Shown here piece by piece: positions 2,516-16,483 of a stretch of 16,504 nucleotides of DNA. Within the stretch, counting starts at the first letter, position 1. Every line of letters starts with the position of its first letter. The DNA is from Candidatus Woesearchaeota archaeon (GTDB taxonomy: Archaea > Nanobdellota > Nanobdellia > Woesearchaeales > WJKL01), in contig JAHWIB010000028.1 of NCBI GenBank assembly GCA_019322815.1, forward strand, positions 1 to 16,504, written 5' to 3'. The position numbers and the translations under genes are program-made. The notes below the pieces were generated by a model that did no database searches, was not told the origin of the DNA, and saw only the letters and a list, made by a program, of their open reading frames with translations.

Positions 2516-2923
2516 ATGGAAGAATGTATATTCTGCAAAATAATAAATGGAGAAATTCCAAGTTCAAAGGTTTATGAGAATGACAAGGTAATTGCTTTTT
2601 TAGATATTGCTCCTGTCAATAAAGGGCATACACTAGTTGTTCCAAAAGAACATCATAAGGATATTATGGATACACCTGATAATATACTGGCAGAAACAAT
2701 TAAGGCTGTAAAGAAGGTGGCAAAAGCTGTTATGAAAGCAACTGGCGCAGAAGGATTTAATCTAGGAGTTAATAACGGCAAAATAGCAGGCCAGCTTGTG
2801 ATGCATCTGCATTTTCACATTATGCCAAGATTCGAGAATGATGGATTAAAGCTCTGGCCTGGCAGAAAATATGAAGGCAATGAGATAGATGAAATTGCCA
2901 AGAAGATAAGCAGTCTGCTTTAA
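2516..2923 (+). CDS. HIT-family (histidine triad) nucleotide hydrolase/transferase
   Basis: HLHFHIMPR histidine-triad motif and a CIFCKI N-terminus typical of HinT-like proteins. AGGTGA Shine-Dalgarno at 2505-2510, 5 nt before the ATG at 2516. The track GTG start at 2507 lies within that SD. Confidence 0.9.
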   Translation: MEECIFCKIINGEIPSSKVYENDKVIAFLDIAPVNKGHTLVVPKEHHKDIMDTPDNILAETIKAVKKVAKAVMKATGAEGFNLGVNNGKIAGQLVMHLHFHIMPRFENDGLKLWPGRKYEGNEIDEIAKKISSLL

Positions 2924-2963
2924 TCTAAAGATTATCCCAAAAATTATCCTTTATTTCTTGAAG

Positions 2964-2992
2964 TTTTTGAACTATTTACGTAATGGTAAAAA
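2964..2992. terminator. convergent intergenic region with T5 runs on both strands (possible archaeal oligo-T terminators)
   Basis: TTTTT at 2964-2968 on the plus strand, downstream of HIT. AAAAA at 2988-2992, which is T5 on the minus strand immediately after the stop of the 3000..3557 gene. Confidence 0.3.
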
Positions 2993-2999
2993 GAAGTAA

Positions 3000-3557
3000 T
3001 TAGAACCAATAACCTGCTGTTAAAACAATAATTCCTTTCACATTCTCACTTCCAATCATCATAATATAATTGAATTTTGCATCAATTCTATCAAACAAAG
3101 TGTTTATTCCAACGCCAATACCAACGCTTGTACTTGATTTTTCATCATGAACACCCATTGCTGGAATATCTATATCGGAAAATTCACTTAAAAAAGCAAG
3201 CCCTCCAGTAAAATAAATATCTGCAATACCTATTGATTTAGATTGATAGACTGCATCAACTCTTAGCAAAAAACTATCTGTTTCTATATATTGTTCAGAT
3301 GATCTAAAATAATCCAAATTTGCTTCAAGACCTAAATTCCTAACTCGCTCTATATCAAACCCATATGATACGCCGACTGCAAAAGAGGCATCATAATCTT
3401 TTTCTTCTTCTGCTACAGGACAGACTAACCCAGCTTTTGGTTCTATATATTGGTCTGGCAGAGGCGCGCATCCAATTGCTAATGAAGTAATACCTGCCAA
3501 AGCCCATATCTTAACTTTTTTAACTATTGATTCAAGATTCCCTATAATATTCATCAT
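3000..3557 (-). CDS. lipobox-containing beta-rich protein resembling small 8-stranded outer-membrane beta-barrels (OmpX/OmpW/OMP_b-brl-like)
   Basis: - N-terminal hydrophobic segment ends in AIGC (a lipobox-like L-A-I-G-C).
- Several alternating hydrophobic/polar strands: FAVGVSYGFDI, LEANLDYF, LLRVDAVYQ, IYFTGGLAFL, VGIGVGINTLF, AKFNYIMMIG, IIVLTAGYWF.
- C-terminal aromatic-X-F terminus.
- The start ATG overlaps the stop of the upstream giant gene (ATGA).
Family assignment is pattern-based only. Confidence 0.6.
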   Translation of the reverse strand: MMNIIGNLESIVKKVKIWALAGITSLAIGCAPLPDQYIEPKAGLVCPVAEEEKDYDASFAVGVSYGFDIERVRNLGLEANLDYFRSSEQYIETDSFLLRVDAVYQSKSIGIADIYFTGGLAFLSEFSDIDIPAMGVHDEKSSTSVGIGVGINTLFDRIDAKFNYIMMIGSENVKGIIVLTAGYWF

Positions 3558-6500
3558 TCATCACAATATTCATAACATTTTCCAAAACTGCAAACTTTTA
3601 TGCAGTTGATGCATCTTCCTAGAGTACATCCTTTTGGACATTGTTCAATTAATTGTCCATTGTCAGAATAACTGCAAGAAGCAGATGGAGTTCCTGGATT
3701 ATTGCAAATATAAGTTCTATAATAATCCCAAACATCATCTGCATTGCAATATTCATTTCCAATAAAGTCATCTGTACCGCAGTCAGAATCATAATAACAT
3801 TCAATTGCTGCACAATTTCCTTGATAACATGTATCAGTGCATGTTTCTTTTAACTGATTATTATCTGCATAATCGCATGAAGATGAACCAGTTCCAGGAT
3901 TAGAGCAGCTATAGTCTCTAAATGTGTCCCAGACATTGTCTCCATTACAGTAATCATTATCTAACCAATAATCTGCAGTGCAGTCATTATCATCATAACA
4001 TTCTACTGCAACACACAATCCAGATTCGCATGTGTCTGTACATATCTCTTTTGACTGGCTTGCATCAGAGTATGAGCATGATGCTAAAGCTGTTCCTGGG
4101 TTGCTGCAAGTATAAGTTCTGTAATCCTGCCAGACATCATCTCCGCTACAGTATGTACTGCCTACCCATCCGTCTGTTCCGCATTCAGCATCATTATAAC
4201 ATTCTATTGTAGCGCAAGAACCTTCATAACAAATTTCTGTGCATGTTTCTTTTAATGATGAAGTAATGCTGCTTGAACAGCTTGATGAAGAAGTTCCTGG
4301 GTTGCTGCAAGTATAAGTTCTGTAATCCTGCCAGACATCATCTCCGCTACAGTATGTACTGCCTACCCATCCGTCTGTTCCGCATTCAGCATCATTATAA
4401 CATGATATTGGGTCACAACTTCCTCCAGAACAAGTATCTGGACATGTTTCTTTTAATTGATTATTATCAGAGTATGAGCATGAAGAAGATGGAGTTCCTG
4501 GACTGCTGCATGTATAGGTTCTATAACCTTGCCAGACATTGTCTCCGCTGCAGTATGTACTGCCTATCCATGTATTTGTTCCGCAGTCTGAATTTGAATA
4601 ACATTCAATTGTAGCGCAAGCGTTACTATAACATGTGTCAGGACAGTCTTGTTTTAATTGTCCGTTATCAGAGTATGAGCATGAAGAAGATGGAGTTCCT
4701 GGATTGCTGCATGTGTAGGTTCTGTAATCCTGCCAAAGATCGTTGCCGTTGCAGTAAGAACTGCCTACCCATGTATTTGTTCCGCAGTCTGAATCAGTAT
4801 AACATGATATTGTAGTGCAAGAGCCAGACCAGCAAGCATCTGCGCAAGTTTGAACTAACTGCTCTTCAATATATTCGCTTTCATAACAGGCTCCTGAAAG
4901 ACATCCTCTGTTATAACATGTTCTGCTCTTATATACATCTCCTGATTTGCAATAATTACTGCTCCAAGAACCACAGCTGCCTGTGCCGCAGTCTTCAATT
5001 AATTGGGAAGAATCTGAATATGAACAAGCTGAACTAGTAGTGCCTGGATTTGTGCATGAATAAGTCCTGTAATCCTGATAAACATCATCACTTGTACAGT
5101 ATGTATCTCCTACATAACCATCTGAGTCACAATCAGAAGTTGAATAACATTCAATTACTTCTGAAGCTGGCTGGAAATCCAAGGCTCCACCATATATGCC
5201 TGGTGGAATAAAGTTAGCTAAAACTGTAAAACCTGGATCTAGTTTATACACTCTTTTATTAGTATAATCAGAACTCCAATAAAAACTTCCATCATAAGCA
5301 ATACCATAAGGACTTGAACTAGGTGCATTATGATCACTATGCGCAACCCCACTAAACCATTCAATCGAATAGACTTTTTGATCAACCATATCAGCATTTA
5401 ATATCCAATAATCGTTAGCACATCCCAAACCATAGGGATAATCTCCGGGGGTATTAAAACTATCTGAAACAGTACCATCAGTTGACATCCTATAAATTTT
5501 ATCATCAGTGCTATCTGAAACCCATAAATAACTTTTACACCAAGTTAGTCCGCTAGCAGAAGAACTAGGAGCATTGATTGTATCTACTATTATGCCAAAT
5601 GTAGTTACTTTGTAAACTTTATCAGCTTGAGCATCAACAATCCACAGATGGCTTCCATCCCATGTAATTCCAGTAGATGCTGATCCAGGGCTGTTAAAAC
5701 TATCAACAACAGTTCCGTCAGTCGTTAATTTGTAAATTTTATCATTCCACCAGTCAACATACCATAAATAACCATCAACAATGCACTGTCCTCCATCGCA
5801 GCCATCGCTGCAAGAGGTATATAATTGAGGAGTAGTTGAGTGTGAGCAGCTTGATGATGTAGTTCCTGGATTGATGCATATGTAGGTTCTATAATCCCAC
5901 CAAACATCTCCAGAATTGCAGTAAGGATAACCTACATACCAATCAACTCCACAGTCTGAATTTGAAGAACATTCTATAGAAACACAAGCTCCTGCTTGGC
6001 ACTCATCTGGACAACTTTCGATCATATTAGGAGTTGTGCTGCTTGAACAGCTTGAAGAAGGTGTTCCTGGATTATTGCAGTCATATGTTCTATAATCCCT
6101 ATAAACATCTCCTCCGCTGCAGTAGTTGCTTCCAGCCCAGCCGTCAGTACCGCAGTCTAAATCTGAATAGCAGGCAATACCTACACAACTTCCTCCAGAA
6201 CAAGTATCTGGACAATTTTGTTTTAGTGTAGGTGTATCTGTGCTGCTGCAAGAAGATGAAGGTGTTCCTGGATTATTGCAGTCATAGGTTCTATAACTTT
6301 GATAAACATCATTTCCACTGCAGTATGTACTGCCTACCCATCCATCTGTTCCGCAGTCTGAATCAGATGAACAACCAACAGCCTGGCAACTAGGATTGTT
6401 ATCAATACACATCTCATCTGAATTGCAATTATCTTGAACAGACCAAGCACCCCACATTATAGATCCAGTACAGCTGCTGCTTGAACCACTGCAATATTTA

Positions 6501-7105
6501 TCTGCATAGTGAACTCCTACATCATCTCCAGGGCTTGTTCCCCATGGGCATCCATAATCTGTCTGGATATCTTCTCCGCATTTATAGCTTGGAAGCCTAT
6601 AGTTACATGTTGATAAATCACAGCAAACACCGCTTCCACATTGACCAAAGGTTATATCTACATTCTGAGGAGAAGTGGTGCAGTCCCCTGTATAAGGGCC
6701 ATTGTTTATTTCAGAAATACTATAAATTTCTATTGTGTTTCCTTCTGTTCCTCCTGCAAAACTTCCTAATTCTTCGGTAAAAGTGTGGCTATAATCAACA
6801 TACGCACAGTAAGTTGGACTTTCTACAGCCTGAAAAAATTTTGTAATTCCAGTTATATAATCATCACCTACTACATCATCTTCCCAAAGATATATATCAA
6901 TTTCAACAGAACCAAAGTTATTAGCACATTCAAGCATTTCTAATGCACTCAAATAATATCTTCCGCTGACAGTAATATCAACATATTCTCCGTCACATGC
7001 AGATGATTGAACACCTATAGAACATGATGCAGATACATTCAAAGCTAATAAAATAAAAGAGAGACCACATAATAAAATTAAAAATAATCTTTTACTAACC
7101 ACCAT
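3554..7105 (-). CDS. giant secreted cysteine-rich repeat protein (1183 aa): signal peptide, N-terminal domain, 3 Cys modules, propeller-like repeats, 7 Cys modules, Cys-rich tail
   Basis: Uninterrupted 3.5-kb ORF. N-terminal signal-like segment LFLILLCGLSFILLALNVSAS. Ten ~67-aa modules containing ...DCGTDGWVGSTYCSG(D/N)DVWQDYRTYTCSNPGTPSSSCS..., each with 8 Cys. Five to six ~42-aa blades (DKIYK..DG......F..P......G...DG..LW). No C-terminal transmembrane segment. Stop is TGA. Confidence 0.85.
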   Translation of the reverse strand: MVVSKRLFLILLCGLSFILLALNVSASCSIGVQSSACDGEYVDITVSGRYYLSALEMLECANNFGSVEIDIYLWEDDVVGDDYITGITKFFQAVESPTYCAYVDYSHTFTEELGSFAGGTEGNTIEIYSISEINNGPYTGDCTTSPQNVDITFGQCGSGVCCDLSTCNYRLPSYKCGEDIQTDYGCPWGTSPGDDVGVHYADKYCSGSSSSCTGSIMWGAWSVQDNCNSDEMCIDNNPSCQAVGCSSDSDCGTDGWVGSTYCSGNDVYQSYRTYDCNNPGTPSSSCSSTDTPTLKQNCPDTCSGGSCVGIACYSDLDCGTDGWAGSNYCSGGDVYRDYRTYDCNNPGTPSSSCSSSTTPNMIESCPDECQAGACVSIECSSNSDCGVDWYVGYPYCNSGDVWWDYRTYICINPGTTSSSCSHSTTPQLYTSCSDGCDGGQCIVDGYLWYVDWWNDKIYKLTTDGTVVDSFNSPGSASTGITWDGSHLWIVDAQADKVYKVTTFGIIVDTINAPSSSASGLTWCKSYLWVSDSTDDKIYRMSTDGTVSDSFNTPGDYPYGLGCANDYWILNADMVDQKVYSIEWFSGVAHSDHNAPSSSPYGIAYDGSFYWSSDYTNKRVYKLDPGFTVLANFIPPGIYGGALDFQPASEVIECYSTSDCDSDGYVGDTYCTSDDVYQDYRTYSCTNPGTTSSACSYSDSSQLIEDCGTGSCGSWSSNYCKSGDVYKSRTCYNRGCLSGACYESEYIEEQLVQTCADACWSGSCTTISCYTDSDCGTNTWVGSSYCNGNDLWQDYRTYTCSNPGTPSSSCSYSDNGQLKQDCPDTCYSNACATIECYSNSDCGTNTWIGSTYCSGDNVWQGYRTYTCSSPGTPSSSCSYSDNNQLKETCPDTCSGGSCDPISCYNDAECGTDGWVGSTYCSGDDVWQDYRTYTCSNPGTSSSSCSSSITSSLKETCTEICYEGSCATIECYNDAECGTDGWVGSTYCSGDDVWQDYRTYTCSNPGTALASCSYSDASQSKEICTDTCESGLCVAVECYDDNDCTADYWLDNDYCNGDNVWDTFRDYSCSNPGTGSSSCDYADNNQLKETCTDTCYQGNCAAIECYYDSDCGTDDFIGNEYCNADDVWDYYRTYICNNPGTPSASCSYSDNGQLIEQCPKGCTLGRCINCIKVCSFGKCYEYCDE
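3611..5155 (-). repeat. C-terminal array of seven ~201-bp (67-aa) Cys-rich coding modules, plus one degenerate unit
   Basis: Protein residues about 651-1165. The YRTY.C.NPGT motif recurs with a 67-aa period. The DNA period of 201 bp is confirmed by the perfect duplicate at 4092-4202 and 4293-4403. Confidence 0.8.
4092..4403 (-). repeat. pair of perfectly identical 111-bp segments (4092-4202 and 4293-4403), offset 201 bp
   Basis: Direct comparison of the sequence. Both copies read gttcctgggttgctgcaagtataagttctgtaatcctgccagacatcatctccgctacagtatgtactgcctacccatccgtctgttccgcattcagcatcattataacat. They encode the identical 37 aa CYNDAECGTDGWVGSTYCSGDDVWQDYRTYTCSNPGT in modules 7 and 8. Confidence 0.9.
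5156..5779 (-). other. beta-propeller-like internal domain of the giant protein (5-6 blades of ~42 aa; NHL/YncE-like pattern)
   Basis: Residues about 443-650. Repeated pattern [LY]W..D...DK[IV]Y[KR]....G.....[FI]..P.....G[IL]. Family assignment is tentative. Confidence 0.5.
5780..6373 (-). repeat. N-terminal array of three ~201-bp Cys-rich coding modules
   Basis: Protein residues about 245-442. Same module consensus as 3611-5155 (DCGTDGW.GS.YCSG.DVY..YRTYDCNNPGTPSSSCS). Confidence 0.75.
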
Positions 7106-7135
7106 TTTCCCCTTTTATTAGTATATTCTTTAAAA

Positions 7136-7143
7136 TATATAAA
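7136..7143 (-). promoter_or_regulatory. possible TATA box (TTTATATA on the minus strand) for the giant-protein operon
   Basis: First T lies 38 nt upstream of the ATG at 7105, implying a short leader. Divergent from the tRNA-Met promoter. Confidence 0.35.
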
Positions 7144-7165
7144 GGTTATGTAAAAGCGAAGATTT

Positions 7166-7173
7166 TTTAAATA
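7166..7173 (+). promoter_or_regulatory. archaeal-type TATA box TTTAAATA for tRNA-Met/Ile2(CAT)
   Basis: First T lies 31 nt upstream of the mature 5' end at 7197. The octamer is identical to the one upstream of tRNA-Ala. Confidence 0.55.
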
Positions 7174-7196
7174 TCTTTTAAATCTTTTTCTCTAAT

Positions 7197-7360
7197 GGCG
7201 GTATAACTCAGCCTGGTTAGAGTGTTACGCTCATAAAAGTTGAGCGCTGAGGCTTTATGCCAATGATCTAAACTCGACCATGAATCGTAAAAGTCCCGAG
7301 TTCAAATATCCTAAAGGGAGACCACAAATCCCTCAGGATTTGAGAGTCTCGGTACCGCCA
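7197..7360 (+). tRNA. tRNA with CAT anticodon (elongator Met or Ile2) carrying two introns (anticodon loop, about 49 nt; T-loop region, about 40 nt)
   Basis: Hand fold:
- Acceptor GGCGGTA (7197-7203) pairs perfectly with TACCGCC (7353-7359); discriminator A7360.
- D arm ACTC / AGCCTGGTTA / GAGT.
- Anticodon stem TTACG (7225-7229) pairs with CGTAA (7286-7290). The loop starts CTCATA, giving anticodon CAT at 7232-7234.
- Intron 1, about 7236-7285, contains TGAGCG, which can pair with the CGCTCA of the anticodon region.
- T stem CCGAG (7296-7300) pairs with CTCGG (7348-7352). T-loop TTCAAAT is followed or interrupted by about 40 nt (about 7306/7308 to 7345/7347).
- Not an initiator: G1:C72 and an AU-rich anticodon stem. 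Confidence 0.75.
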
Positions 7361-7361
7361 C

Positions 7362-7376
7362 TTTTTTTTGTTTTTT
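7362..7376 (+). terminator. oligo-T terminator (T8 then T6) directly after tRNA-Met
   Basis: T8 at 7362-7369 and T6 at 7371-7376, starting 2 nt after the discriminator base. Typical archaeal (RNAP or Pol III-like) oligo-T termination signal. Confidence 0.55.
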
Positions 7377-7561
7377 ATATTTTTTAATATGTTTTGGATT
7401 AATAAAACCTATTTTTGATCTAAATAACTCTAAATTTCTTTTCCAGGGATTATGATCCAGAAGAATGCGAAAAAAATGGAGCAGGATCCCCTTATAAATT
7501 TTTATTCAAAACAAAAAAAGATATTGAGAAATATGTTCAGGAAAAAACAAAAATAAAAGAA

Positions 7562-8941
7562 TTATAATTCTACTTTCTCTCCAATCTTTGGGATATGGCT
7601 ATTAAATCCTATCTTATTTAATCTTTCTTTTAAAGCTTTAGAAGATTTATATTCTCCATGTATAATGAATATTTTTTTAGGCTTTTTAACAAAACCTTTG
7701 CTCCATCTAACCAATTCATTATAATCAGCATGAGCAGAAAAGCTGTTTATTTTTTGTATATCTGCATTCACATCAACAACCATTCCCATCATCCTTGCCT
7801 CTTTTGCGCCTTCTAAAAGATATCTTCCCAAAGTTCCTTCTGCCTGGTAACCTACAAACAACACGATGTTTTTAGGATCCCATAATCCATGCCTTAGATG
7901 GTGCCTTATTCTTCCTGCAGTGCACATGCCGCTTCCTGCAATTATAACGCACGGCTTATTATAATTATTTAATTTCTTTGAATCCCTTGCAGTAGGGGTA
8001 TATTCAAGATTAGAAAACCTGAAAGGATTCTTGTATCTGGTCAATGCCTCTTCGTCAAAGAATTCATGATGCTTTTTGAATATCTCTGTTGCTTTTATTG
8101 CCAGAGGACTGTCAAGAAATATCTTCATATCTGGAAATTTTCCCTGCTTGATCAGTTTGTTAAATGAATAAAGCAGCTCCTGTGTCCTTTCAATTGCAAA
8201 AGAAGGTATTAATAGTTTTCCTTTTCTTTTATAGGCCTCTTTTGAGTATTTTAACAGTAAACTATCCCTGTCAGCAATCTCTTCATGAAGCCTGTCACCA
8301 TAAGTTGATTCAATTAAAACATAATCTGCGTCATCTATCATAGTGGGGTCCTCTATAATTGGAACATCCCACTGCCCTAAATCTCCAGAAAAAACAATCT
8401 TTTTTTCTCTGCCCTTTTCTTCAACAAACATCTCAATTATCGATGAGCCTATGATATGGCCTGCATCCTTATATCTGACCTTAATATTTTTTTCAATATT
8501 ATACAATTTGTTATAATCAACTTTTTTAAACAGAGGTATTGAAGCGCTGACATCTCTATCAGTATACAAAGGCTCTCTCTGCGGAAGGCCTTGTCTTCTA
8601 AGCCTCTTGTTCTCATGCTCATTTTCCATGTATTGGATATGAGCAGAATCATCAAGCATTATCCTGCATAAATCAATTGTTGCAGAAGTTGCGAAGATTT
8701 TTCCTCTGAAGCCATACTTTACTAATTTAGGAATCAGGCCGGAATGGTCAATATGTGCATGGGTAAGGAAAAGATAATCAATTTTCTTTGGATCAAATAA
8801 AAAAGGCTTGTAATTTAATCTTGTTATATCCTTGGTTCCCTGAAACATCCCGCAGTCAACTAATACTTTGCTCTTTCCAGCCTCAATCAAATAACAAGAA
8901 CCAGTAACTATCCTAGCTGCCCCGCAAAAAGTTATCTTCAT
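7562..8941 (-). CDS. beta-CASP family MBL-fold ribonuclease (aCPSF2 / RNase J-like, no KH domains)
   Basis: Metallo-beta-lactamase motif HAHIDHSG. N-terminal MKITFCGAARIVTGSCYL....VLVDCGMFQG is typical of beta-CASP RNA-metabolising enzymes. C-terminal ...SAHAD... and IIHGE motifs. 459 aa. Confidence 0.85.
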   Translation of the reverse strand: MKITFCGAARIVTGSCYLIEAGKSKVLVDCGMFQGTKDITRLNYKPFLFDPKKIDYLFLTHAHIDHSGLIPKLVKYGFRGKIFATSATIDLCRIMLDDSAHIQYMENEHENKRLRRQGLPQREPLYTDRDVSASIPLFKKVDYNKLYNIEKNIKVRYKDAGHIIGSSIIEMFVEEKGREKKIVFSGDLGQWDVPIIEDPTMIDDADYVLIESTYGDRLHEEIADRDSLLLKYSKEAYKRKGKLLIPSFAIERTQELLYSFNKLIKQGKFPDMKIFLDSPLAIKATEIFKKHHEFFDEEALTRYKNPFRFSNLEYTPTARDSKKLNNYNKPCVIIAGSGMCTAGRIRHHLRHGLWDPKNIVLFVGYQAEGTLGRYLLEGAKEARMMGMVVDVNADIQKINSFSAHADYNELVRWSKGFVKKPKKIFIIHGEYKSSKALKERLNKIGFNSHIPKIGEKVEL

Positions 8942-9668: not shown

Positions 9669-9698
9669 GTTTATGAAGGTATTTAAAATGAAATAAAG

Positions 9699-9781
9699 CG
9701 CCAGCAGCAGGATTCGAACCTACAAGGGCAAAGCCCAGTCGCTTTCGAGGCGACCGCACTACCAGGTTATGCGATGCTGGC
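9699..9781 (-). tRNA. tRNA-Ser(CGA), class II, intronless, no encoded CCA
   Basis: Hand fold of the reverse complement:
- Acceptor GCCAGCA / TGCTGGC, discriminator G.
- D arm GCAT / AACCTGGTA / GTGC.
- Anticodon arm GTCGC / CTCGAAA / GCGAC, anticodon CGA.
- Long variable arm TGGGCTTTGCCCTT.
- T arm GTAGG / TTCGAAT / CCTGC.
Total 83 nt. Confidence 0.9.
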
Positions 9782-9823: not shown

Positions 9824-10282
9824 TTAATTCAATAAAACAATAGAAATATTGAGCACAGCAGCAAAGCTAACCCATAATATATAAGGAATGAACAAGTAAG
9901 CAGATATTTTATTTATTCTGTAAAAATATATTATTGTAATCAATATAGCAGCCCATAAGAATATTATTTCTATAAAAGCAAATAAGGGATTTTGCAAGCC
10001 AAAAAATAAGACTGACCACAAAGCATTCAGAAATAATTGGATACCAAAAACAGTGAAGGCTTTCTTGTCGTATCTTTTGATCCAAACTAAATAAAGAGAA
10101 ATTCCCATCAGCAAATATAAAATTGTCCAGACAGGGCCAAACACCCAACTAGGAGGATTGAAGCTTGGCTTAATTAATGTAATATACCATGTAGAAACAG
10201 ACTGTGAAGTGAAAAATCCTCCAATAACACTTGCTAAAAAAGGAAGCAGTATTGAAATTATTAATTTCCATATCTTTTTCAT
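9824..10282 (-). CDS. tspO: TspO/MBR family tryptophan-rich sensory protein
   Basis: Five-TM 152-aa protein carrying WY..L.KPSFNPPSWVFGPVWTILYLLMG, characteristic of TspO. A TATA-like TATTTATA starts 32 nt upstream of the ATG. Confidence 0.85.
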   Translation of the reverse strand: MKKIWKLIISILLPFLASVIGGFFTSQSVSTWYITLIKPSFNPPSWVFGPVWTILYLLMGISLYLVWIKRYDKKAFTVFGIQLFLNALWSVLFFGLQNPLFAFIEIIFLWAAILITIIYFYRINKISAYLFIPYILWVSFAAVLNISIVLLN

Positions 10283-10327: not shown

Positions 10328-10759
10328 ATGAGATTATGGAGTATACATCCAAAGTATCTTGACTGCAAGGGGATTTTAGGATTATGGAGAGAAGCATTAT
10401 TAGCTAAAAAAGTGTTGGAGGGTAAAACTAAAAGTTATGTTAATCATCCCCAGTTGGAAAGATTCAAAGAACAAAAAGAGCCTGTTAAGTTCATTAAAAC
10501 TTATTTATTATATATCTGGAAAGAATCTGATAAAAGATGTTATAGATTTGACAAAACAAAAATTGGAAGAGGTTTTACAAATAAAAAGATAAAAACAACA
10601 GAAGGCCAGATTAAATATGAATTTAAGCATCTGAAAGATAAGCTTAAAAAAAGAAACACAATTAAATACAAAGAATTAATGAGAATTAAAAAAATTGAAC
10701 CAAATCCTTTATTTAAAATAATAAAAGGCCCAATAGAAAGATGGGAGAAACAAAAATGA
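10328..10759 (+). CDS. pyrimidine dimer DNA glycosylase / endonuclease V (DenV-like) family protein
   Basis: The N-terminus MRLWSIHPKYLDCKGILGLWREALLAKKVLEGKTKSYVNHPQL matches the conserved start of this family as I recall it (MRLWSLHPKYLD.KGLVALWREALLAQ.VL.G.T.GY.NHPQL). Stop is TGA. Confidence 0.8.
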   Translation: MRLWSIHPKYLDCKGILGLWREALLAKKVLEGKTKSYVNHPQLERFKEQKEPVKFIKTYLLYIWKESDKRCYRFDKTKIGRGFTNKKIKTTEGQIKYEFKHLKDKLKKRNTIKYKELMRIKKIEPNPLFKIIKGPIERWEKQK

Positions 10760-11286
10760 AAAAACTATTGCTGCATGTATGCTGCGCACCTTGCTCAACA
10801 CATGTAATTAATGTTCTGAAACAAAATTATGACTTAACTTTGTTTTTCTATAATCCAAATGTAGAGCCGTTGAATGAGTATTCTTTAAGATTAGAAGCAG
10901 CTGAAAAGTTTGCAGAAGAGATAGATATTCCAATGATTGTGGGAGATTATGATGCAATTGAATGGAACAATGCAATAAAAGGCCATGAAAATGACGAAGA
11001 AGGTGGAGAAAGATGTTCTATCTGTTTTAGATTCAGGTTAGAAAAGACTGCACAGACTGCTAAAGAAAAAGGATTTGATTTGTTTACAACAACATTAACT
11101 GTTTCTCCTTATAAAAATGCTCCTGTTATTAATCAAATTGGAAAGGAATTATCTGAAAAATATAATATTGAGTTTTTAGAATCTGATTTTAAAAAAGAAG
11201 ATGGTTATGCACATAGTATTAAGCTGAGCAAAGAGCATGGATTATACAGGCAGGATTACTGCGGATGTTTATTTTCCAAGAAATAA
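10756..11286 (+). CDS. queH: epoxyqueuosine reductase QueH (DUF208)
   Basis: LLLHVCCAPCS near the N-terminus, the RCSICFRFRLEKTA motif and the TTTLTVSPYKN motif are typical of QueH. The ATG at 10756 overlaps the upstream TGA (ATGA) and is preceded by GGGAG. The track start at 10741 would lie inside the upstream gene. Confidence 0.85.
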   Translation: MKKLLLHVCCAPCSTHVINVLKQNYDLTLFFYNPNVEPLNEYSLRLEAAEKFAEEIDIPMIVGDYDAIEWNNAIKGHENDEEGGERCSICFRFRLEKTAQTAKEKGFDLFTTTLTVSPYKNAPVINQIGKELSEKYNIEFLESDFKKEDGYAHSIKLSKEHGLYRQDYCGCLFSKK

Positions 11287-11297
11287 AATAAAAAAAT

Positions 11298-11630
11298 TTA
11301 TCTCCTTAGTTTTGCTGTAAATAAAATACCAAAGGAGACGATTAATCCATATGCTATAAGAATCTTATCAAGAGACACGTAGTTCATCAAGAACAATATT
11401 ATTCCTACAATCAATGCTGCTAATCCTGTAATTAAGAGGAAAATCTCTATAGTGCTTCTGAATACCTGGGCTTTAAATCCATATAATGCATCTAAAACAC
11501 TCTCTTTAATCTCCTCTACTCTTTTCACATATTTCTGGCCTAAATAATTTGCTGTTATCTGAGAAATCAAATCAACATAACTTACAACTTTTCCAACTTT
11601 TTTTACTTTGCTCTTGATTTTTGAAATCAT
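11298..11630 (-). CDS. small membrane protein (110 aa; amphipathic N-terminal region plus two TM segments), YqjE/DUF1469-like topology
   Basis: The start ATG overlaps the stop of the upstream DUF883-like gene (ATGA). Two hydrophobic segments (IFLLITGLAALIVGIILFLM and ILIAYGLIVSFGILF). The family call rests on topology and gene context only. Confidence 0.5.
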   Translation of the reverse strand: MISKIKSKVKKVGKVVSYVDLISQITANYLGQKYVKRVEEIKESVLDALYGFKAQVFRSTIEIFLLITGLAALIVGIILFLMNYVSLDKILIAYGLIVSFGILFTAKLRR

Positions 11631-11887
11631 TTTCTTCTCTTTTTAGCTAATGCTCCAACTGCTGCTCCTAATGCTGCTCCAATTCCTGCTGCAATTGCAG
11701 CTGCTTTTTCTGGATTTTTCTTGACATATTCTCTTACTTGTTTTTCATGCTTAGCAAATTTGGCTTTTGCTTTTTTCATCTCAGCAACTGCCATTCTTTC
11801 ATATTTTTTAATCTCTGCTTTAATATCTTTTTTAGAAGTAGGTTTTTTTGCTTTTTTAGCTGTTTTTTTAGCTTTCTTTTTTGCCAT
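11627..11887 (-). CDS. DUF883 (ElaB/YqjD/YgaM)-like tail-anchored protein (86 aa)
   Basis: The C-terminus EYVKKNPEKAAAIAAGIGAALGAAVGALAKKRRK resembles the DUF883 C-terminal consensus (YV.ENPW.A.G.AA..G...G.LL.RR). Lys-rich helical N-terminus. GAGGTG Shine-Dalgarno at 11893-11900. TTTAAATA about 46 nt upstream of the ATG. Confidence 0.6.
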   Translation of the reverse strand: MAKKKAKKTAKKAKKPTSKKDIKAEIKKYERMAVAEMKKAKAKFAKHEKQVREYVKKNPEKAAAIAAGIGAALGAAVGALAKKRRK

Positions 11888-11934: not shown

Positions 11935-12918
11935 TTATTTATTTAGAATCAGCATTGCATCTCCAAAACTAAAGAACCTGTATTTATTTTTGACTGCTAA
12001 TTTATATGCACTTAAAATCTTTTTTCTTCCTGTGAATGCACTTACTAGCATCAATAAAGTGGATTTAGGCAGATGAAAGTTTGTTATTAAGCCATCAATC
12101 TTTGTCTTAAACTTATAACCTGGCTTAATGAAAATCTCTGTTTCTCCTTTTTTTGGAATAATTTTATTGTTTTTGTTTGCTGATTCTAATGTTCTTACTG
12201 ATGTTGTTCCAACAACAAATAATCTTCCTTTTCTTTTGTTTATAATATCTGCATTCTTTTTGTTTATTTCAAAATATTCTTTATGCAATGTTTTTTTATT
12301 AATATTTCTTACAGGCAGAAATGTTCCAAAGTCAACATGCAATGTAACTTTTGCAATTCTTATCCCTTTTTTCTTGATTTTAGATAATAATCTTTTTGTA
12401 AAATGCAGTCCAGCTGTCGGCGCTGCAATGCTTCCTTTTTTATTTGAATAAACTGTCTGGTATTGAGAATTTTTTTCTAGCTTTCTTTTAACATAAGGAG
12501 GAAGGGGCAATTGCCCAATAGATCCCATTATCTTGTTAACATCTTCATCAAATTCAACTGTGAAATGATCTTCATCCTGATCTATTATTTCTGCTTTATA
12601 TTTATTGAAGATCAATTTATTACCCACTCTTGGATTAGTTGCTTTTATCCTGCATTTGTATTTGTTTTTATCAATTTCTTCAATAATCAATTCAACTTTT
12701 GCTCCTGTTGTCTTTTTTCCTGTTAATTTAGCTGGAATCACTTTTGTTTCATTTACAACTAAAACATCTCCTTTATTCAAATAATCTAGGATGTTGTAGA
12801 ATTTCTTATGATGGATTTTTTTGTTTATTATCATTAATTTAGAATTATCCCTAGGTGAAACTGGAAACTGTGCAATAAATTCTTTTGGAAGATTATAATC
12901 AAAGTCAGATAATTTCAT
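11935..12918 (-). CDS. queA: S-adenosylmethionine:tRNA ribosyltransferase-isomerase
   Basis: Colinear with E. coli QueA as I recall it: MKLSDFDYNLPKEFIAQFP, PLPPY, YQTVYS...GSIAAPTAGLHF, VTLHV..GTF.PV, VGTTSVRTLES, ITNFHLPKSTLLMLVSAF, YRFFSFGDAMLI. Confidence 0.92.
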   Translation of the reverse strand: MKLSDFDYNLPKEFIAQFPVSPRDNSKLMIINKKIHHKKFYNILDYLNKGDVLVVNETKVIPAKLTGKKTTGAKVELIIEEIDKNKYKCRIKATNPRVGNKLIFNKYKAEIIDQDEDHFTVEFDEDVNKIMGSIGQLPLPPYVKRKLEKNSQYQTVYSNKKGSIAAPTAGLHFTKRLLSKIKKKGIRIAKVTLHVDFGTFLPVRNINKKTLHKEYFEINKKNADIINKRKGRLFVVGTTSVRTLESANKNNKIIPKKGETEIFIKPGYKFKTKIDGLITNFHLPKSTLLMLVSAFTGRKKILSAYKLAVKNKYRFFSFGDAMLILNK

Positions 12919-12955: not shown

Positions 12956-13369
12956 CTAATCAAGCTTAGTGAATTTTAATATAACTCTGGTAGATGCCGG
13001 GCCAAAATATGTTACTGCCAGCAAAGAATTTCCATCTAAAGAACAGATTTTGTTGAATTCCTTTGTATCTAAAGCACTGCATTCATCATATAAATCTACA
13101 TCTTCTTCTCCATCCATATATGATTGAAAATCACTAGGGGATCTGAATATGTTGATATCTATATTTCTAATTGAGTCAACTGAGATATTATATCTGCCTT
13201 CAGGTATGCTGTGAAAATATTTAGTGTCTCCAAATTCAAGATTAAATATTTCAGTTTGAGGAGCAGGCTTTTGATTTTTACCTGCCTCCATTCCCTGCTT
13301 AAAACTATCAACTAAACTGCAGCTGCTAAGAAAAACTGCTAAAATAATCAATCCAATTATTTTTTTCAT
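12956..13369 (-). CDS. predicted lipoprotein (137 aa), unknown function
   Basis: Signal peptide MKKIIGLIILAVFLSSC with lipobox LSSC. GAGAGGT Shine-Dalgarno upstream. Last gene of a tightly packed minus-strand operon. Confidence 0.65.
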   Translation of the reverse strand: MKKIIGLIILAVFLSSCSLVDSFKQGMEAGKNQKPAPQTEIFNLEFGDTKYFHSIPEGRYNISVDSIRNIDINIFRSPSDFQSYMDGEEDVDLYDECSALDTKEFNKICSLDGNSLLAVTYFGPASTRVILKFTKLD

Positions 13370-13370
13370 T

Positions 13371-13562
13371 TTAACCTCTCTTTCTTCTGAAAAGCAGCAG
13401 ATAAACTATTGGAAGTATTCCTGCTGTGTTTAATATGAATATAAGAACAAACCATATAAGCTGCTTGTTTCTTCCGCATTTCCACAATGCAATTCCTTTC
13501 CATACCATTTCCCAAGCCACTATAAAAGTGATTATTGGGATTAAAAAATCTTGCCATGCCAT
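13371..13562 (-). CDS. small two-TM membrane protein, DUF5652-like (63 aa)
   Basis: WKGIALWKCGRNKQLIWFVLIFILNTAGILPIVYLL matches my recollection of DUF5652 (WKG.ALWKAAR..Q..WF.......T.GILEI.YL). A perfect GGAGGTGA Shine-Dalgarno (13567-13574 on the plus strand as tcacctcc) ends 5 nt before this ATG. The competing frame 13366..13557 has no such site. Confidence 0.65.
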   Translation of the reverse strand: MAWQDFLIPIITFIVAWEMVWKGIALWKCGRNKQLIWFVLIFILNTAGILPIVYLLLFRRKRG

Positions 13563-15594: not shown

Positions 15595-15834
15595 ATGACA
15601 ACCAAATTGCAAGAAAGACAAACAATCGATAGTACAGTAGCTGATGTTAGAAGTCAGTATATTCCTGAATCAAGAGAGTATATGCCTCAAACTAAAAGAT
15701 ATAAGCCTGCAGAAAAAGATATATCTCAGGATTATGTTAAAAGTATGAAAGCTAAGTTCTTGGATTGGTATTTTGGACTGCCTAAAAAAGGGGATCCAAG
15801 AAGAAAAGAATATCTAGCTATTTTTTCTAATTAA
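15595..15834 (+). CDS. hypothetical protein (79 aa)
   Basis: Intact ORF with a TATA box at leaderless spacing. No recognisable family. Its 3' end overlaps the convergent rsmI by 8 nt. Confidence 0.5.
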   Translation: MTTKLQERQTIDSTVADVRSQYIPESREYMPQTKRYKPAEKDISQDYVKSMKAKFLDWYFGLPKKGDPRRKEYLAIFSN

Positions 15835-16483
15835 TAATTAAAACAATCTCTCCTTTTAATTTTTTTACTTTTTGATAAACTTCTTTTACCTTTCCTCTTA
15901 TAAACTCTTCAAATTTCTTTGTCAGTTCTCTTGCTATTACAATATTTTTTTCAGGGATTATTTCATCCATTAATCTTAATGTTCTTATGATTCTATGAGG
16001 GCTTTCATAATAGATGAATGTTAAGTTTTCTGTTTTTGATATCCAGAACAGAACATCTCTTAGTTTTTTTTCTTTTTTTGGCAGAAATCCAAAAAATCCA
16101 AATTTATCAGTTGGCAGGCCTGAGCAGACTAATGCTGAAATTATTGCTGTCGGGCCTGGAATTGGGCTTATCTGGATATTGTATTTTACTGCTTCTCTTA
16201 CTAAGTAGAATCCTGGATCACTGATTCCTGGTGTTCCTGAATCTGAAACTAAAGCCAAGTCTTTTCCTTGTTTTAACAGTTCAATCGCTTTTTGTGTAAC
16301 TCTTGTTTTATTTATATCATTATATGAGATAATCTCTTTATCTTTAATCATATATTCTCTTAACAAAATTTTAGTTCTTCTTGTATCTTCTGCAAGAATT
16401 AAGTCTGCTTCTCTTAATGTATCAACTGCTCTTAATGTGATATCTTTAAGATTTCCTATTGGTGTTGAAACAATGTATAACAT
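15827..16483 (-). CDS. rsmI: 16S rRNA (cytidine-2'-O)-methyltransferase RsmI-like (tetrapyrrole-methylase fold)
   Basis: The N-terminus MLYIVSTPIGNLKDITLRAVDTLREADLILAEDTRRT matches the RsmI signature (LY.V.TPIGNL.DIT.RA...L...D.I.AEDTR.T). Also SDSGTPGISDPG and ESPHR motifs. Confidence 0.85.
   Translation of the reverse strand: MLYIVSTPIGNLKDITLRAVDTLREADLILAEDTRRTKILLREYMIKDKEIISYNDINKTRVTQKAIELLKQGKDLALVSDSGTPGISDPGFYLVREAVKYNIQISPIPGPTAIISALVCSGLPTDKFGFFGFLPKKEKKLRDVLFWISKTENLTFIYYESPHRIIRTLRLMDEIIPEKNIVIARELTKKFEEFIRGKVKEVYQKVKKLKGEIVLIIN

What the first reader, a model, noticed from the sequence alone, without database searches (positions are those of the whole stretch)
3000..3557. Outer-membrane-beta-barrel-like lipoprotein in a genome with archaeal hallmarks
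The 185-aa protein combines three features:
- a lipobox (LAIGC);
- about eight amphipathic beta-strand-like segments;
- a C-terminal ...LTAGYWF terminus, the aromatic-X-Phe signature used by bacterial OMPs for BAM recognition.

Archaea in general lack outer membranes and BAM. Either this is a horizontally acquired bacterial OMP fold repurposed in a single membrane or S-layer context, or the organism (or its host interface) has an unusual envelope.
Basis: inference. Interest (0 to 1): 0.65.

Follow-up and report, generated by a model that had tools for sequence, protein, structure and literature searches.

The report
OmpA-like beta-barrel lipoprotein in Woesearchaeota
A tiny DPANN archaeon (Woesearchaeota) really does encode a bacterial-outer-membrane-type 8-stranded beta-barrel, and it is always encoded next to a secreted surface protein that ends in one conserved cysteine-rich tail, so the barrel is probably the membrane anchor for that protein.

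Summary
ORF 3000-3557(-) encodes 185 aa: a leader with a lipobox-like LAIGC, eight long amphipathic strands, and a C-terminal GYWF.

- **Fold:** it scores above the Pfam gathering threshold for OMP_b-brl (34.2 vs 28.7 bits). Its AlphaFold model (pLDDT 78) matches only bacterial outer-membrane barrels: OmpA, OmpX, Ail, NspA, OprF, OmpW.
- **Organism:** the contig is archaeal. Archaeal GluRS and an archaeal histone lie on it in three independent assemblies. The only genome hits are two Ca. Woesearchaeota MAGs.
- **Family:** it is small (59 representatives among 1.84 billion). An AT-rich archaeal core is separated from distant GC-rich relatives, one of them annotated as Planctomycetota.
- **New finding:** in 20 of 21 loci with upstream sequence, the barrel gene follows a Sec-secreted protein. 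These proteins differ in body (Cys-rich giants, S8 subtilases, small proteins) but all end in the same tail, ~VCNFGKCYEYCVWQ. In the window that protein is the 1183-aa product of 3554-7105, overlapping the barrel start by ATGA.
- **Conservation pattern:** the barrel's conserved residues sit on the loop end, not the membrane belt.

Best reading: a lipid-anchored membrane barrel docks tag-bearing surface proteins, analogous to type IX secretion (T9SS) type-B C-terminal-domain cargo with PorP/SprF. Which membrane holds it, and how it is assembled without BAM, remain open.

The parts
3000..3557 (-). Barrel gene: 185-aa OMP_b-brl-type protein (stop codon at 3000-3002)
   Evidence: ORF. Pfam PF13505 34.2 bits, above the 28.7 cut-off. 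AF2 8-strand model. Foldseek matches to OmpA/OmpX/Ail/NspA/OmpW.
3471..3557 (-). Leader, aa 1-29 (MMNIIGNLESIVKKVKIWALAGITSLAIG): conserved 'LESI..KKGK' n-region followed by a hydrophobic h-region
   Evidence: Coordinates checked. AF2 models it as a low-confidence helix. The same leader is found on unrelated lipoproteins in L016/L018.
3468..3482 (-). Lipobox-like motif LAIGC (Cys30)
   Evidence: Cys is invariant in close homologues and the motif is present in 27/41 family members.
3003..3452 (-). Mature 8-stranded barrel, aa 36-185
   Evidence: Strand boundaries. Each strand has a hydrophobic, variable face and a polar/Gly-rich, conserved face.
3138..3185 (-). Tip of the beta5-beta6 hairpin, EFSDIDIPAMGVHDEK: the most conserved motif of the archaeal family and part of the conserved 'crown' at the end opposite the termini
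   Evidence: Alignments. Position relative to the strands.
3003..3029 (-). Last strand IVLTAGYWF, a beta-signal-like C-terminus
   Evidence: Family comparison.
3554..7105 (-). Cargo gene: 1183-aa Sec-secreted, 9.2% Cys surface protein. It has at least 9 repeats of 67 aa, a central Vgb_lyase/NHL-like propeller region, and a C-terminal tag.
   Evidence: ORF. Pfam Vgb_lyase 43 bits, below the cut-off of 50. Repeats. Cys content and signal peptide.
7028..7105 (-). Cargo signal peptide MVVSKRLFLILLCGLSFILLALNVSA
   Evidence: Read from the sequence.
3557..3643 (-). Cargo C-terminal Cys-rich tag QCPKGCTLGRCINCIKVCSFGKCYEYCDE
   Evidence: The same tail is found on the upstream protein in 20 of 21 loci, whatever the body of that protein.
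3554..3557 (-). ATGA overlap of the cargo stop codon and the barrel start codon (translational coupling)
2988..2995 (-). T-run (TTCTTTTT on the minus strand) just after the barrel stop codon; a possible archaeal terminator
   Evidence: Read from the sequence. Inference only.

Best explanation
ORF 3000-3557(-) encodes a lipobox-bearing, 8-stranded OmpA/OmpX-type transmembrane beta-barrel of a Woesearchaeota (DPANN) archaeon. It is the second gene of a two-gene cassette.

The first gene (3554-7105) encodes a Sec-exported surface protein: 67-aa Cys-rich repeats, a propeller-like region, and a short disulfide-rich C-terminal tag (..VCSFGKCYEYCDE).

**Proposed mechanism**
1. Both proteins are co-translated from one message (ATGA overlap) and exported by Sec.
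2. The barrel is lipidated at Cys30 by the archaeal AliA/AliB route and sits in a membrane through its hydrophobic belt.
3. Its conserved, acidic crown projects away from the lipid-anchored end. The crown comprises loops L1-L4 and the protruding beta3-beta4 and beta5-beta6 hairpins.
4. The crown binds the cargo's C-terminal tag and so tethers the adhesin or protease to the cell surface.

**Shown:** the fold, homology to OMP_b-brl, archaeal origin, the gene pairing, tag conservation, and the location of the conserved residues.

**Inferred:** membrane insertion, lipidation, the direct tag-crown contact, and bacterial ancestry by horizontal transfer. Which membrane holds the barrel (the archaeon's own single membrane, an unrecognised outer membrane, or a host membrane) is unknown.
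For: **Fold and homology**
- Pfam OMP_b-brl above its cut-off; 15/23 members hit it.
- AF2 gives 8 strands at pLDDT 78.
- All 25 Foldseek PDB hits at E<=1e-3 are bacterial outer-membrane beta-barrels, led by OmpA, OmpX, Ail, NspA, OprF and OmpW (TM-scores normalised to the target 0.53-0.65 among the top 15). No lipocalin or avidin-type barrel appears among the 50 matches listed.

**Transmembrane signature**
- On every strand except beta4, one face is hydrophobic (mean Kyte-Doolittle hydropathy (KD) +0.8 to +2.1, <=13% charged). On six of the eight strands that face is also the more variable one.
- The other face is polar and Gly-rich (12-31% charged). It is clearly better conserved on six of the eight strands.
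- There are about 5-6 outward hydrophobic residues per strand.

**Archaeal origin**
- gltX_arch and an archaeal histone on the same contig, in three independent assemblies.
- Woesearchaeota MAG hits.
- Gene GC is 33.7% against 32.5% for the window.

**Cassette**
- A tag-bearing secreted protein lies upstream of the barrel in 20 of 21 loci with upstream sequence. It is directly adjacent in 18 of them.
- Cargo bodies are unrelated: Cys-rich giants of 456-1862 aa, S8 subtilases, and 191-220 aa proteins.
- Other large secreted proteins in the same loci that lack the tag end in a TM helix plus basic tail instead.
- The window genes overlap by ATGA.

**Conserved surface.** PVAEE..Y, SS.QYIET, EFS.IDIP...VHDE and SENVKG all map to the loop end. 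The turns at the terminus end are variable and carry indels.

**Precedent.** T9SS type-B CTD cargo is anchored by an adjacently encoded PorP/SprF barrel (PMC9143113).

**Lipoproteins.** They are prevalent in DPANN and AliA is present there (PMC12462473).
Against: - No physical evidence of any kind exists: no localisation, no lipidation data, no interaction data.
- A tag-barrel complex could not be modelled.
- Loci were collected through the barrel. Tag-bearing genes elsewhere in these genomes, without a barrel, cannot be excluded.
- No co-variation between tag variants and crown residues is visible in 14 pairs.
- No machinery for inserting beta-barrels is known in archaea. No outer membrane has been reported for Woesearchaeota (literature searches).
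- About a third of the family lacks the lipobox Cys.
- Barrel closure (beta1-beta8 pairing) was inferred from full-length Foldseek alignments, not read from coordinates.
Confidence: 0.5

Rival explanations
1. Generic envelope barrel. The protein is an OmpA/OmpX-like structural or adhesive barrel in a true archaeal outer membrane, meaning these Woesearchaeota are diderm. Gene adjacency to the cargo would then reflect only a shared surface-protein island, not a physical partnership.
For: - The fold and the hydrophobic belt match classical OMPs.
- Double membranes have been reported for other DPANN-associated lineages, ARMAN and Altiarchaeales (PMC4243693; PMC8871954).
- A possible OMP relative in Altiarchaeales is mentioned in PMC12228718.
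- The loci are rich in other surface proteins.
Against: - It does not explain why unrelated upstream proteins all share one C-terminal tag, in 20/21 loci.
- It does not explain why the loop end of the barrel is the conserved end. [quoted passage not shown]
- No outer membrane is documented for Woesearchaeota.
Confidence: 0.15
2. Export channel. The barrels oligomerise, or act with an unknown partner, to translocate the upstream cargo across an outer layer. The C-terminal tag would then be a secretion signal rather than an anchor. This would resemble two-partner secretion or T9SS.
For: - The cargo-then-barrel gene order, and a conserved C-terminal tag as in T9SS CTDs (PMC9143113).
- 8-strand barrels of other superfamilies can form oligomeric chambers (PMC12228718).
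Against: - An 8-stranded monomer has no lumen for a polypeptide. The interior face is packed with conserved polar and Gly residues.
- There are no POTRA or Omp85-type domains, and no hit to TpsB, PorV or Sov families.
- The tag matches no Pfam or NCBIfam CTD model.
Confidence: 0.1
3. Host-directed barrel. The barrel, or the barrel-cargo complex, is inserted into the membrane of the host or prey cell to bridge the two cells or to permeabilise the host.
For: - DPANN are mostly obligate ectosymbionts (abstracts of PMC11329633 and PMC11291902).
- Neighbouring genes encode adhesin-like giants, S8 proteases and SLT-like lipoproteins.
- The terminal-Phe constraint is relaxed, as expected if no BAM is used.
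Against: - The lipobox and leader argue for retention on the producer's own membrane.
- There is no similarity to pore-forming toxins.
- This is speculation without any direct data.
Confidence: 0.1
4. Soluble lipoprotein barrel. The protein would be lipocalin- or avidin-like, tethered by its lipid anchor, and would bind a small hydrophobic ligand or scavenged lipid.
For: - It has eight strands and a lipid anchor. Bacterial lipocalin Blc is a lipoprotein (own knowledge).
- DPANN are thought to depend on host-derived lipids (own knowledge).
Against: - No soluble barrel appears among the listed Foldseek hits.
- The hydrophobic face is the variable one and the polar/Gly face is the conserved one, the opposite of a soluble hydrophobic core.
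- Pfam places the protein in the outer-membrane barrel family.
- Members without the lipobox would lack any tether.
Confidence: 0.07
5. Artefact. The gene would be bacterial and sit on a chimeric or mis-binned contig.
For: The window also carries bacterial-type genes: QueA, QueH and RsmI.
Against: - Three independent assemblies (one ENA, two JGI samples) join the barrel to an archaeal histone and archaeal GluRS, with 0-2 mismatches to the window.
- 30+ loci are all 27-37% GC.
- Other loci carry type III RuBisCO and Taw3.
- The genome hits are two Woesearchaeota MAGs.
- The barrel's GC equals that of the window.
Confidence: 0.02

Closest known systems
Pfam PF13505 OMP_b-brl (clan MBB); structurally the small 8-stranded barrels OmpA N-domain (1BXW/1QJP), OmpX (1QJ9), Ail (3QRA), NspA (1P4T), OprF-N (4RLC), OmpW (2F1V)
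   Same: - HMM score above the gathering threshold.
- 8 antiparallel strands, an N-terminal export signal, a hydrophobic belt and a polar interior.
- A C-terminal aromatic-x-Phe in this clade.
- Long strands that protrude beyond the belt, as in OmpX/Ail.

   Different: - The host is an archaeon with no known BAM or outer membrane.
- Sequence identity to solved barrels is only 13-21%, and there is no sequence-level PDB hit.
- There is no hit to the OmpA_membrane, Ail_Lom or OmpW models.
- The loop end is conserved rather than hypervariable.
- It carries an N-terminal lipobox.
- Most family members carry a basic tail after the last strand.
T9SS type-B CTD cargo with its cognate PorP/SprF-like outer-membrane barrel (SprB-SprF, PG1035-PorP) in Bacteroidota
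   Same: - A large surface adhesin carrying a conserved C-terminal domain is encoded next to a dedicated beta-barrel.
- That barrel binds it and anchors it on the cell surface (PMC9143113).
- The gene logic matches the cassette found here.
   Different: - This is an analogy, not homology.
- The tag here is a ~20-30 aa Cys-rich tail, not a folded CTD, and it matches no CTD model.
- The barrel is 8-stranded OMP_b-brl, not PorP. One family member gave a PorP_SprF hit at E=0.024, which is not significant.
- No T9SS components were seen.
- The organism is archaeal.
Archaeal lipobox lipoproteins (AliA/AliB pathway)
   Same: - A Sec-type leader ending in a lipobox-like motif with a conserved Cys.
- Such lipoproteins are predicted to be prevalent in DPANN (PMC12462473).
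- The same leader occurs on other lipoproteins of this lineage.
   Different: - Position -3 is Ala/Thr rather than L/V/I.
- Lipidation has not been tested.
- To my knowledge, known archaeal lipoproteins are soluble domains (for example substrate-binding proteins), not membrane barrels.
Distant GC-rich relatives of the same subfamily (e.g. MHC5055176.1, 'CARDB domain-containing protein [Planctomycetota bacterium]'; a 1750-aa protein with the barrel at its C-terminus)
   Same: They share the barrel core, the L4 motif (S[ED]N[VI].G) and the ..G[YW]xF ending.
   Different: - E-values are only 1e-9 to 1e-3.
- They lack the archaeal EFS.IDIP..VHDE hairpin motif and the LESI leader.
- The barrel is often fused behind long N-terminal regions.
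- The 26 GC-rich-type representatives (FYMINK/GARP ratio below 0.7) all end exactly in Phe.
PopA-type and other oligomeric 8- to 12-strand 'lipid-trapping' barrels; a possible distal relative in Altiarchaeales
   Same: This is a precedent that OMP-like barrels may exist in DPANN-associated lineages (PMC12228718).
   Different: - No similarity to PopA was detected here.
- Oligomerisation was not tested.
- Altiarchaeales are reported to have a double membrane. Nothing is known for Woesearchaeota.

Membership tests
Pfam PF13505 OMP_b-brl (MBB clan) | Profile HMM score at or above the curated gathering threshold | tested here: met
   34.2 bits against 28.7, E=3.5e-8. 15/23 family members hit the model, best E=8.5e-11.
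Pfam PF13505 OMP_b-brl (MBB clan) | Antiparallel 8-stranded closed barrel | tested here: met
   AF2 gives 8 strands at pLDDT 78. Full-length Foldseek alignments to OmpA, OmpX and OmpW, with TM-scores normalised to the target of 0.54-0.65. Closure was inferred from these alignments; coordinates were not inspected.
Pfam PF13505 OMP_b-brl (MBB clan) | Lipid-facing hydrophobic exterior and polar interior (a transmembrane barrel rather than a soluble one) | tested here: met
   Per-strand face analysis on 23 sequences. On seven of eight strands one face is hydrophobic, and on six strands that face is also the more variable one. The polar/Gly face is the conserved one. This is sequence-based inference.
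Pfam PF13505 OMP_b-brl (MBB clan) | Residence in a bacterial-type outer membrane | not testable with these tools
   No localisation data. No report on the Woesearchaeota envelope was found.
BAM/Omp85 substrates | C-terminal beta-signal ending in an aromatic residue (usually Phe), with alternating hydrophobic residues | tested here: inconclusive
   Met in the window protein (..IVLTAGYWF). Only ~14/41 archaeal members end in Phe, and the rest carry GKK-type tails. The 26 GC-rich-type relatives all end in Phe.
BAM/Omp85 substrates | Presence of an Omp85/BamA insertase in the same genome | not testable with these tools
   Only about 16-20 kb per locus is held.
OmpA N-terminal domain (PF01389), Ail/Lom/OmpX (PF06316), OmpW (PF03922) | Match to the specific family HMM | tested here: not met
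   None of these models was hit, even at E<=1, for any of the 23 members. The similarity is at fold level only.
Prokaryotic lipoprotein (lipobox) | Signal peptide ending in [LVI][ASTVI][GAS]C | tested here: inconclusive
   The sequence is L-A-I-G-C, so -3 is Ala. Only permissive patterns are satisfied. The Cys is conserved in 27/41 members. SignalP/LipoP were not available.
Prokaryotic lipoprotein (lipobox) | Actual lipidation of the Cys (AliA/AliB in archaea) | not testable with these tools
   Only literature context is available (PMC12462473).
T9SS CTD cargo / PorP-SprF anchor | Cargo carries a type A or type B CTD (TIGR04183/TIGR04131, Pfam CHU_C) | tested here: not met
   The 1183-aa cargo has no NCBIfam hit at E<=0.01 and no CTD-type Pfam hit at E<=0.1.
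T9SS CTD cargo / PorP-SprF anchor | Cargo gene adjacent to a dedicated barrel gene | tested here: met
   20 of 21 loci. This is a functional analogy only.
Lipocalin / soluble 8-strand barrels | Structural match to lipocalin or avidin folds; a conserved hydrophobic interior | tested here: not met
   No such match appears among the 50 listed Foldseek hits. The conserved face is the polar one.

The most novel reading that the evidence does not exclude
Woesearchaeota possess a genuine, lineage-wide class of transmembrane beta-barrel proteins that fold without BAM. They would sit either in a so-far unseen archaeal outer membrane or, unprecedentedly, in the cytoplasmic membrane.

These barrels would also form a new sorting and anchoring system. 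In it, a short disulfide-rich C-terminal tag (..VCNFGKCYEYCVWQ) directs diverse secreted adhesins and proteases to a cognate barrel. That would be an archaeal counterpart of T9SS type-B CTD/PorP anchoring, evolved from a horizontally acquired bacterial OMP.
Probability: 0.35. Interest if true: 0.85.

Novelty: new variant of a known kind. Interest (0 to 1): 0.66.

Why it matters
Transmembrane beta-barrels of the OmpA/OmpX type are treated as a hallmark of bacterial (and organellar) outer membranes. Their assembly is thought to need Omp85/BAM. A conserved, clearly archaeal family of such barrels raises three testable questions.

- **Envelope:** do some DPANN archaea have an outer membrane, or can a barrel live in an archaeal ether-lipid membrane?
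- **Assembly:** how is the barrel inserted without BAM? The relaxed terminal-Phe rule hints that the bacterial constraint has been lost.
- **Surface display:** how do genome-reduced ectosymbionts display the giant adhesins and proteases that mediate host contact?

The cargo-tag/barrel cassette gives a concrete, two-component system. It could be expressed, reconstituted and modelled. The tag also offers a sequence handle for cataloguing the surface proteome of uncultivated Woesearchaeota.

Tried and rejected
1. **AF2 of a barrel-linker-tag chimera** with a paired 14-locus alignment (A4).
2. **Profile of the C-terminal tag** (A5/A6) against the 5.8-billion protein set. The first attempt was too short. 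The second gave no hit at E<=0.01 because a 49-position profile lacks power.
3. **The last 84 aa of the cargo as a single query.** No candidate shared enough words. All three protein searches were then spent, so the tag could not be surveyed independently of the barrel.
4. **AF2 of the cargo's last 150 aa**, using the protein's own repeats as the alignment. pLDDT was 39.5, which is unusable, and it was not searched further.
5. **Sequence search of the PDB** with family profiles. Only chance-level hits.
6. **Bacterial sigma-70 promoter and terminator scan** of 2850-7650. Promoter-like sites were below the shuffle expectation, and the scan is not applicable to an archaeon.
7. **First metagenome scan with the 23-sequence alignment.** It failed for lack of a conserved stretch and was repeated with 11 sequences.
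8. **Co-variation between tag variants and crown residues.** Nothing is visible in 14 pairs.
9. **Soluble lipocalin-like barrel and bacterial contamination.** Both were considered and rejected; see the rival explanations.
10. **Literature searches** for a prior description of OMP-type barrels or this cassette in Woesearchaeota/DPANN. None was found.
Full report
**1. What is at the coordinates**

The minus strand of 3000-3557 carries an ATG-to-stop ORF of 185 aa. Public gene calls start one Met later, giving 184 aa.
- The N-terminus reads MMNIIGNLESIVKKVKIWALAGITSLAIGC. It has a basic n-region, a hydrophobic stretch, and LAIGC at aa 26-30 (nt 3468-3482).
- The protein ends ..IVLTAGYWF.
- The next gene upstream on the same strand (3554-7105, 1183 aa) overlaps the start codon by ATGA.
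- A T-run follows the stop codon.

**2. Is it an outer-membrane-type barrel?**

Pfam gives one hit, OMP_b-brl (PF13505): 34.2 bits, E=3.5e-8, above the curated cut-off of 28.7. Of 23 family members scanned, 15 hit the same model (best 8.5e-11). The only other marginal hits are also outer-membrane barrels, PorP_SprF and Tsx.

AlphaFold2 with a 7-sequence alignment gives pLDDT 77.9 and pTM 0.72. It shows a low-confidence N-terminal helix (the leader) followed by eight strands of 11-20 residues.

Foldseek against the PDB returns 25 matches at E<=1e-3.
- All are bacterial outer-membrane beta-barrels.
- The list is led by OmpA TM domain, OmpX, Ail, NspA, OprF-N and OmpW. The top 15 matches have E from 1.5e-7 to 8e-5, and target-normalised TM-scores of 0.53-0.65.
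- No lipocalin or avidin-type barrel appears among the 50 listed matches.
- At sequence level there is no relative in the PDB.

A face-by-face analysis of the strands over 23 sequences shows the following.
- On every strand except beta4, one face is hydrophobic (mean KD +0.8 to +2.1, at most 13% charged). On six of the eight strands that face is also the more variable one (entropy about 1.9-2.3).
- The other face is polar and Gly-rich (12-31% charged). It is clearly better conserved on six of the eight strands (entropy about 1.2-1.7).

That is the pattern of a membrane barrel with a packed polar interior, and the opposite of a soluble barrel with a conserved hydrophobic core. About 5-6 outward hydrophobic residues per strand make a belt of bilayer thickness; this last point is inference.

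**3. Is the organism archaeal?**

The window is 99.99% identical over 13.5 kb to an ENA contig (L004). It also overlaps two independently assembled JGI contigs with 0-2 mismatches. Those contigs continue past window position 1 into two archaeal markers:
- an archaeal histone (NF043032, 76 bits against a cut-off of 50);
- an archaeal-type GluRS (TIGR00463, 559 bits against a cut-off of 402).

A homologous locus on a 95-kb contig carries type III RuBisCO and Taw3. The only hits among 185,579 species genomes are two Ca. Woesearchaeota MAGs. The barrel gene's GC (33.7%) equals the window's (32.5%), and all 33 loci are 27-37% GC. Contamination or a chimeric contig is therefore very unlikely.

**4. 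The family**

The close search found 7 proteins. An exhaustive profile search of 1.84 billion representatives found only 59 at E<=1e-3 and 24 at E<=1e-10. A metagenome scan added 25 loci, one of them on a 652-kb contig.

By amino-acid composition the family splits in two.
- The core (E<=1e-10) has AT-rich-genome composition.
- The 26 representatives with GC-rich-genome composition all lie in the tail (E from 1e-9 to 1e-3), where they are the majority. One is annotated 'CARDB domain-containing protein [Planctomycetota bacterium]'. Several carry the barrel at the end of long proteins, one of 1750 aa.
- All 26 GC-rich-type representatives end exactly in ..G[YW]xF.
- Only about 14 of 41 archaeal members end in Phe. 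The rest continue with a short, usually basic tail, typically ..G[YW]R[FL]x[FL]G(G)KK.

That is what one would expect if BAM-type recognition no longer applies; this is inference. Bacterial ancestry by horizontal transfer is plausible but not demonstrated.

**5. The lipobox**

Cys30 is invariant in the closest clade. A lipobox-like L-[AT]-[AIVM]-[GS]-C occurs in 27 of 41 full-length members. One subclade has an SPase-I-like site instead. The same leader (MKQKLESI.KKGK..ALAGL..LAIGC) heads unrelated neighbouring lipoproteins, so it is a lineage-typical lipoprotein signal.

Lipobox proteins are predicted to be prevalent in DPANN and are lipidated by AliA/AliB, not Lgt (PMC12462473). The motif is therefore ordinary for the host and says nothing about a bacterial Lol/Lgt system. 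Position -3 is Ala, so the strict consensus is not met. No predictor could be run.

**6. The neighbourhood: the main new result**

I called ORFs in all loci. In 20 of 21 distinct loci that include upstream sequence, a signal-peptide protein ending in one conserved Cys-rich tail lies upstream of the barrel on the same strand.
- The tail is approximately GC[TI].G[RK]CK[VI]EVC..[VI]C[NS][FY]G.CYEYC[VD]WQ, with a short variant ..VCNYGKCYYV.
- The two genes are directly adjacent in 18 loci (where both ends are on the contig, gaps run from -23 to +123 nt). They are separated by one to three genes in the other two (L016, L018).
- The bodies of these proteins are unrelated: Cys-rich giants of 456-1862 aa, two S8 subtilases, and small 191-220 aa proteins.
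- Other large secreted proteins in the same loci that lack the tail end in a TM helix plus a basic tail.

In the window the cargo is the 1183-aa product of 3554-7105.
- Its signal peptide is MVVSKRLFLILLCGLSFILLALNVSA.
- It has at least nine 67-aa Cys repeats and a Vgb_lyase/NHL-like propeller region (43 bits, below the cut-off).
- Its tail is ..CINCIKVCSFGKCYEYCDE (3557-3643).

Caveat: the loci were fetched through the barrel. Tags elsewhere in these genomes could not be surveyed, because searches failed.

**7. Where the barrel is conserved**

The invariant motifs all lie at the end of the barrel opposite the N- and C-termini, on loops L1-L4 and the protruding parts of beta3-beta4 and beta5-beta6. 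They are:
- PVAEE..Y (beta1-beta2 loop);
- SS.QYIET (beta3-beta4);
- EFS.IDIP...VHDE (beta5-beta6 hairpin tip);
- SENVKG (beta7-beta8).

The turns next to the termini are variable and carry indels. [quoted passage not shown] The beta5-beta6 motif is specific to the archaeal clade. The SENVKG-like motif is shared with the GC-rich relatives.

**8. Mechanism proposed**

The barrel and cargo are co-expressed and Sec-exported. The barrel is held in a membrane by its hydrophobic belt and, in most members, by a lipidated Cys next to strand 1. Its conserved acidic crown binds the disulfide-stapled C-terminal tail of the cargo. This tethers adhesin-like giants or proteases to the cell surface in place of a C-terminal TM anchor.

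The nearest functional precedent is in Bacteroidota. [quoted passage not shown] This is an analogy only: the tag hits no CTD model and the barrel is not PorP.

The protruding sheet recalls the OmpX 'fishing rod', which was proposed to bind proteins by strand augmentation; this rests on my own knowledge and was not tested.
- **Shown:** fold, homology, host, pairing, tag, and location of conservation.
- **Inferred:** membrane insertion, lipidation, direct contact, and direction of transfer.
- **Unknown:** which membrane holds the barrel, and how it is inserted.

**9. Rivals**

- A generic envelope barrel of a diderm archaeon does not explain the tag or the conserved crown.
- An export channel is unlikely. 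Eight strands with a packed interior leave no lumen, and there are no Omp85/POTRA features.
- A host-directed barrel remains possible but is speculative, and the lipobox argues for self-retention.
- A soluble lipocalin-like barrel is contradicted.
- A bacterial artefact is contradicted.

**10. Novelty and score**

No paper describing OMP-type barrels or this cassette in Woesearchaeota was found. The nearest statement is a passing mention of a possible distal PopA relative in Altiarchaeales (PMC12228718).

The barrel itself is a new, divergent branch of a known superfamily. The archaeal host, the lipobox, the inverted conservation pattern, the relaxed C-terminal rule and the cargo-tag pairing together make it a new variant of a known kind.

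Interest is 0.66. A specialist would be surprised by a well-supported archaeal OMP-type barrel family. It also makes questions about the DPANN envelope and surface display directly testable. All functional statements, however, remain computational.

Noticed in passing
window 10741-11286 (+), 11935-12918 (-), 15827-16483 (-): Bacterial-type tRNA/rRNA modification genes sit on an archaeal contig. They are QueH (Pfam 241 bits), QueA (TIGR00113, 385 bits, above its cut-off) and RsmI (TIGR00096, 233 bits, above its cut-off). To my knowledge, queuosine synthesis is a bacterial trait and archaea use archaeosine. This suggests further bacterial gene acquisition in this Woesearchaeote.
   Followed up: partly
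L016 3323-4300, L018/L019 7018-7986, L018 5908-6648, L022 3-803: Other lipoproteins sit between cargo and barrel in some loci. They carry the same conserved leader, MKQKLESI.KKGK..ALAGL..LAIGC (or the shorter MKRKLELIALAGLLSLAIGC in L018 5908-6648). The related, 5'-truncated ORF in L022 has a weak SLT lytic-transglycosylase hit (E=3e-4, 20.7 bits against a cut-off of 21.3). A murein-cleaving enzyme in an archaeon could point to a bacterial host or prey.
   Followed up: partly
L008 8245-15872; L025 6738-14488; L026 8770-13379; also L020, L028, L029, L031: In 7 loci the barrel is followed by a conserved pair of genes. The first encodes a ~610-655 aa protein whose N-terminus looks like an archaeal class III (type IV pilin-like) signal (..KRGQ|VT.FIIIAIIIVA..). 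The second encodes a giant of at least 1886-1962 aa where the gene is complete or nearly so, and it is cut by the contig end in most loci. Neither has a Pfam hit.
   Followed up: partly
window 7562-8941 (-): A 459-aa beta-CASP metallo-beta-lactamase RNase without KH domains. Its best NCBIfam hits are type VII CRISPR Cas14 (446 bits, cut-off 800) and aCPSF1 (300 bits, cut-off 580), both below threshold. It is probably an aCPSF2-like RNase.
   Followed up: no
window 12956-13369 (-): A second predicted lipoprotein in the window (MKKIIGLIILAVFLSSCS..). It has a canonical lipobox (LSSC) and no family assignment.
   Followed up: no
window 13371-13562 (-) and 13366-13557 (-): A small DUF5652 membrane protein (63 aa, 90 bits). 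An alternative-frame ORF of the same length overlaps it. Only the DUF5652 frame has support.
   Followed up: no
window 9698-9781 (-); 9824-10282 (-); 10328-10759 (+): tRNA-Ser(CGA), a TspO/MBR family protein (172 bits), and a pyrimidine-dimer DNA glycosylase whose 3' end overlaps the QueH start by 19 nt.
   Followed up: no
L017 1-975; protein P0040 (1750 aa): L017 carries two barrel genes in tandem. A distant GC-rich relative has the barrel fused to the C-terminus of a 1750-aa multi-repeat surface protein, a possible 'Rosetta-stone' link between giant surface proteins and this barrel.
   Followed up: partly
window 11627-11887 (-) and 11298-11630 (-): An 86-aa Lys/Ala-rich protein with a C-terminal glycine-zipper (weak DUF883_C and Gly-zipper hits). 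Its stop overlaps the start of a 110-aa membrane protein. The function of the pair is unknown.
   Followed up: no
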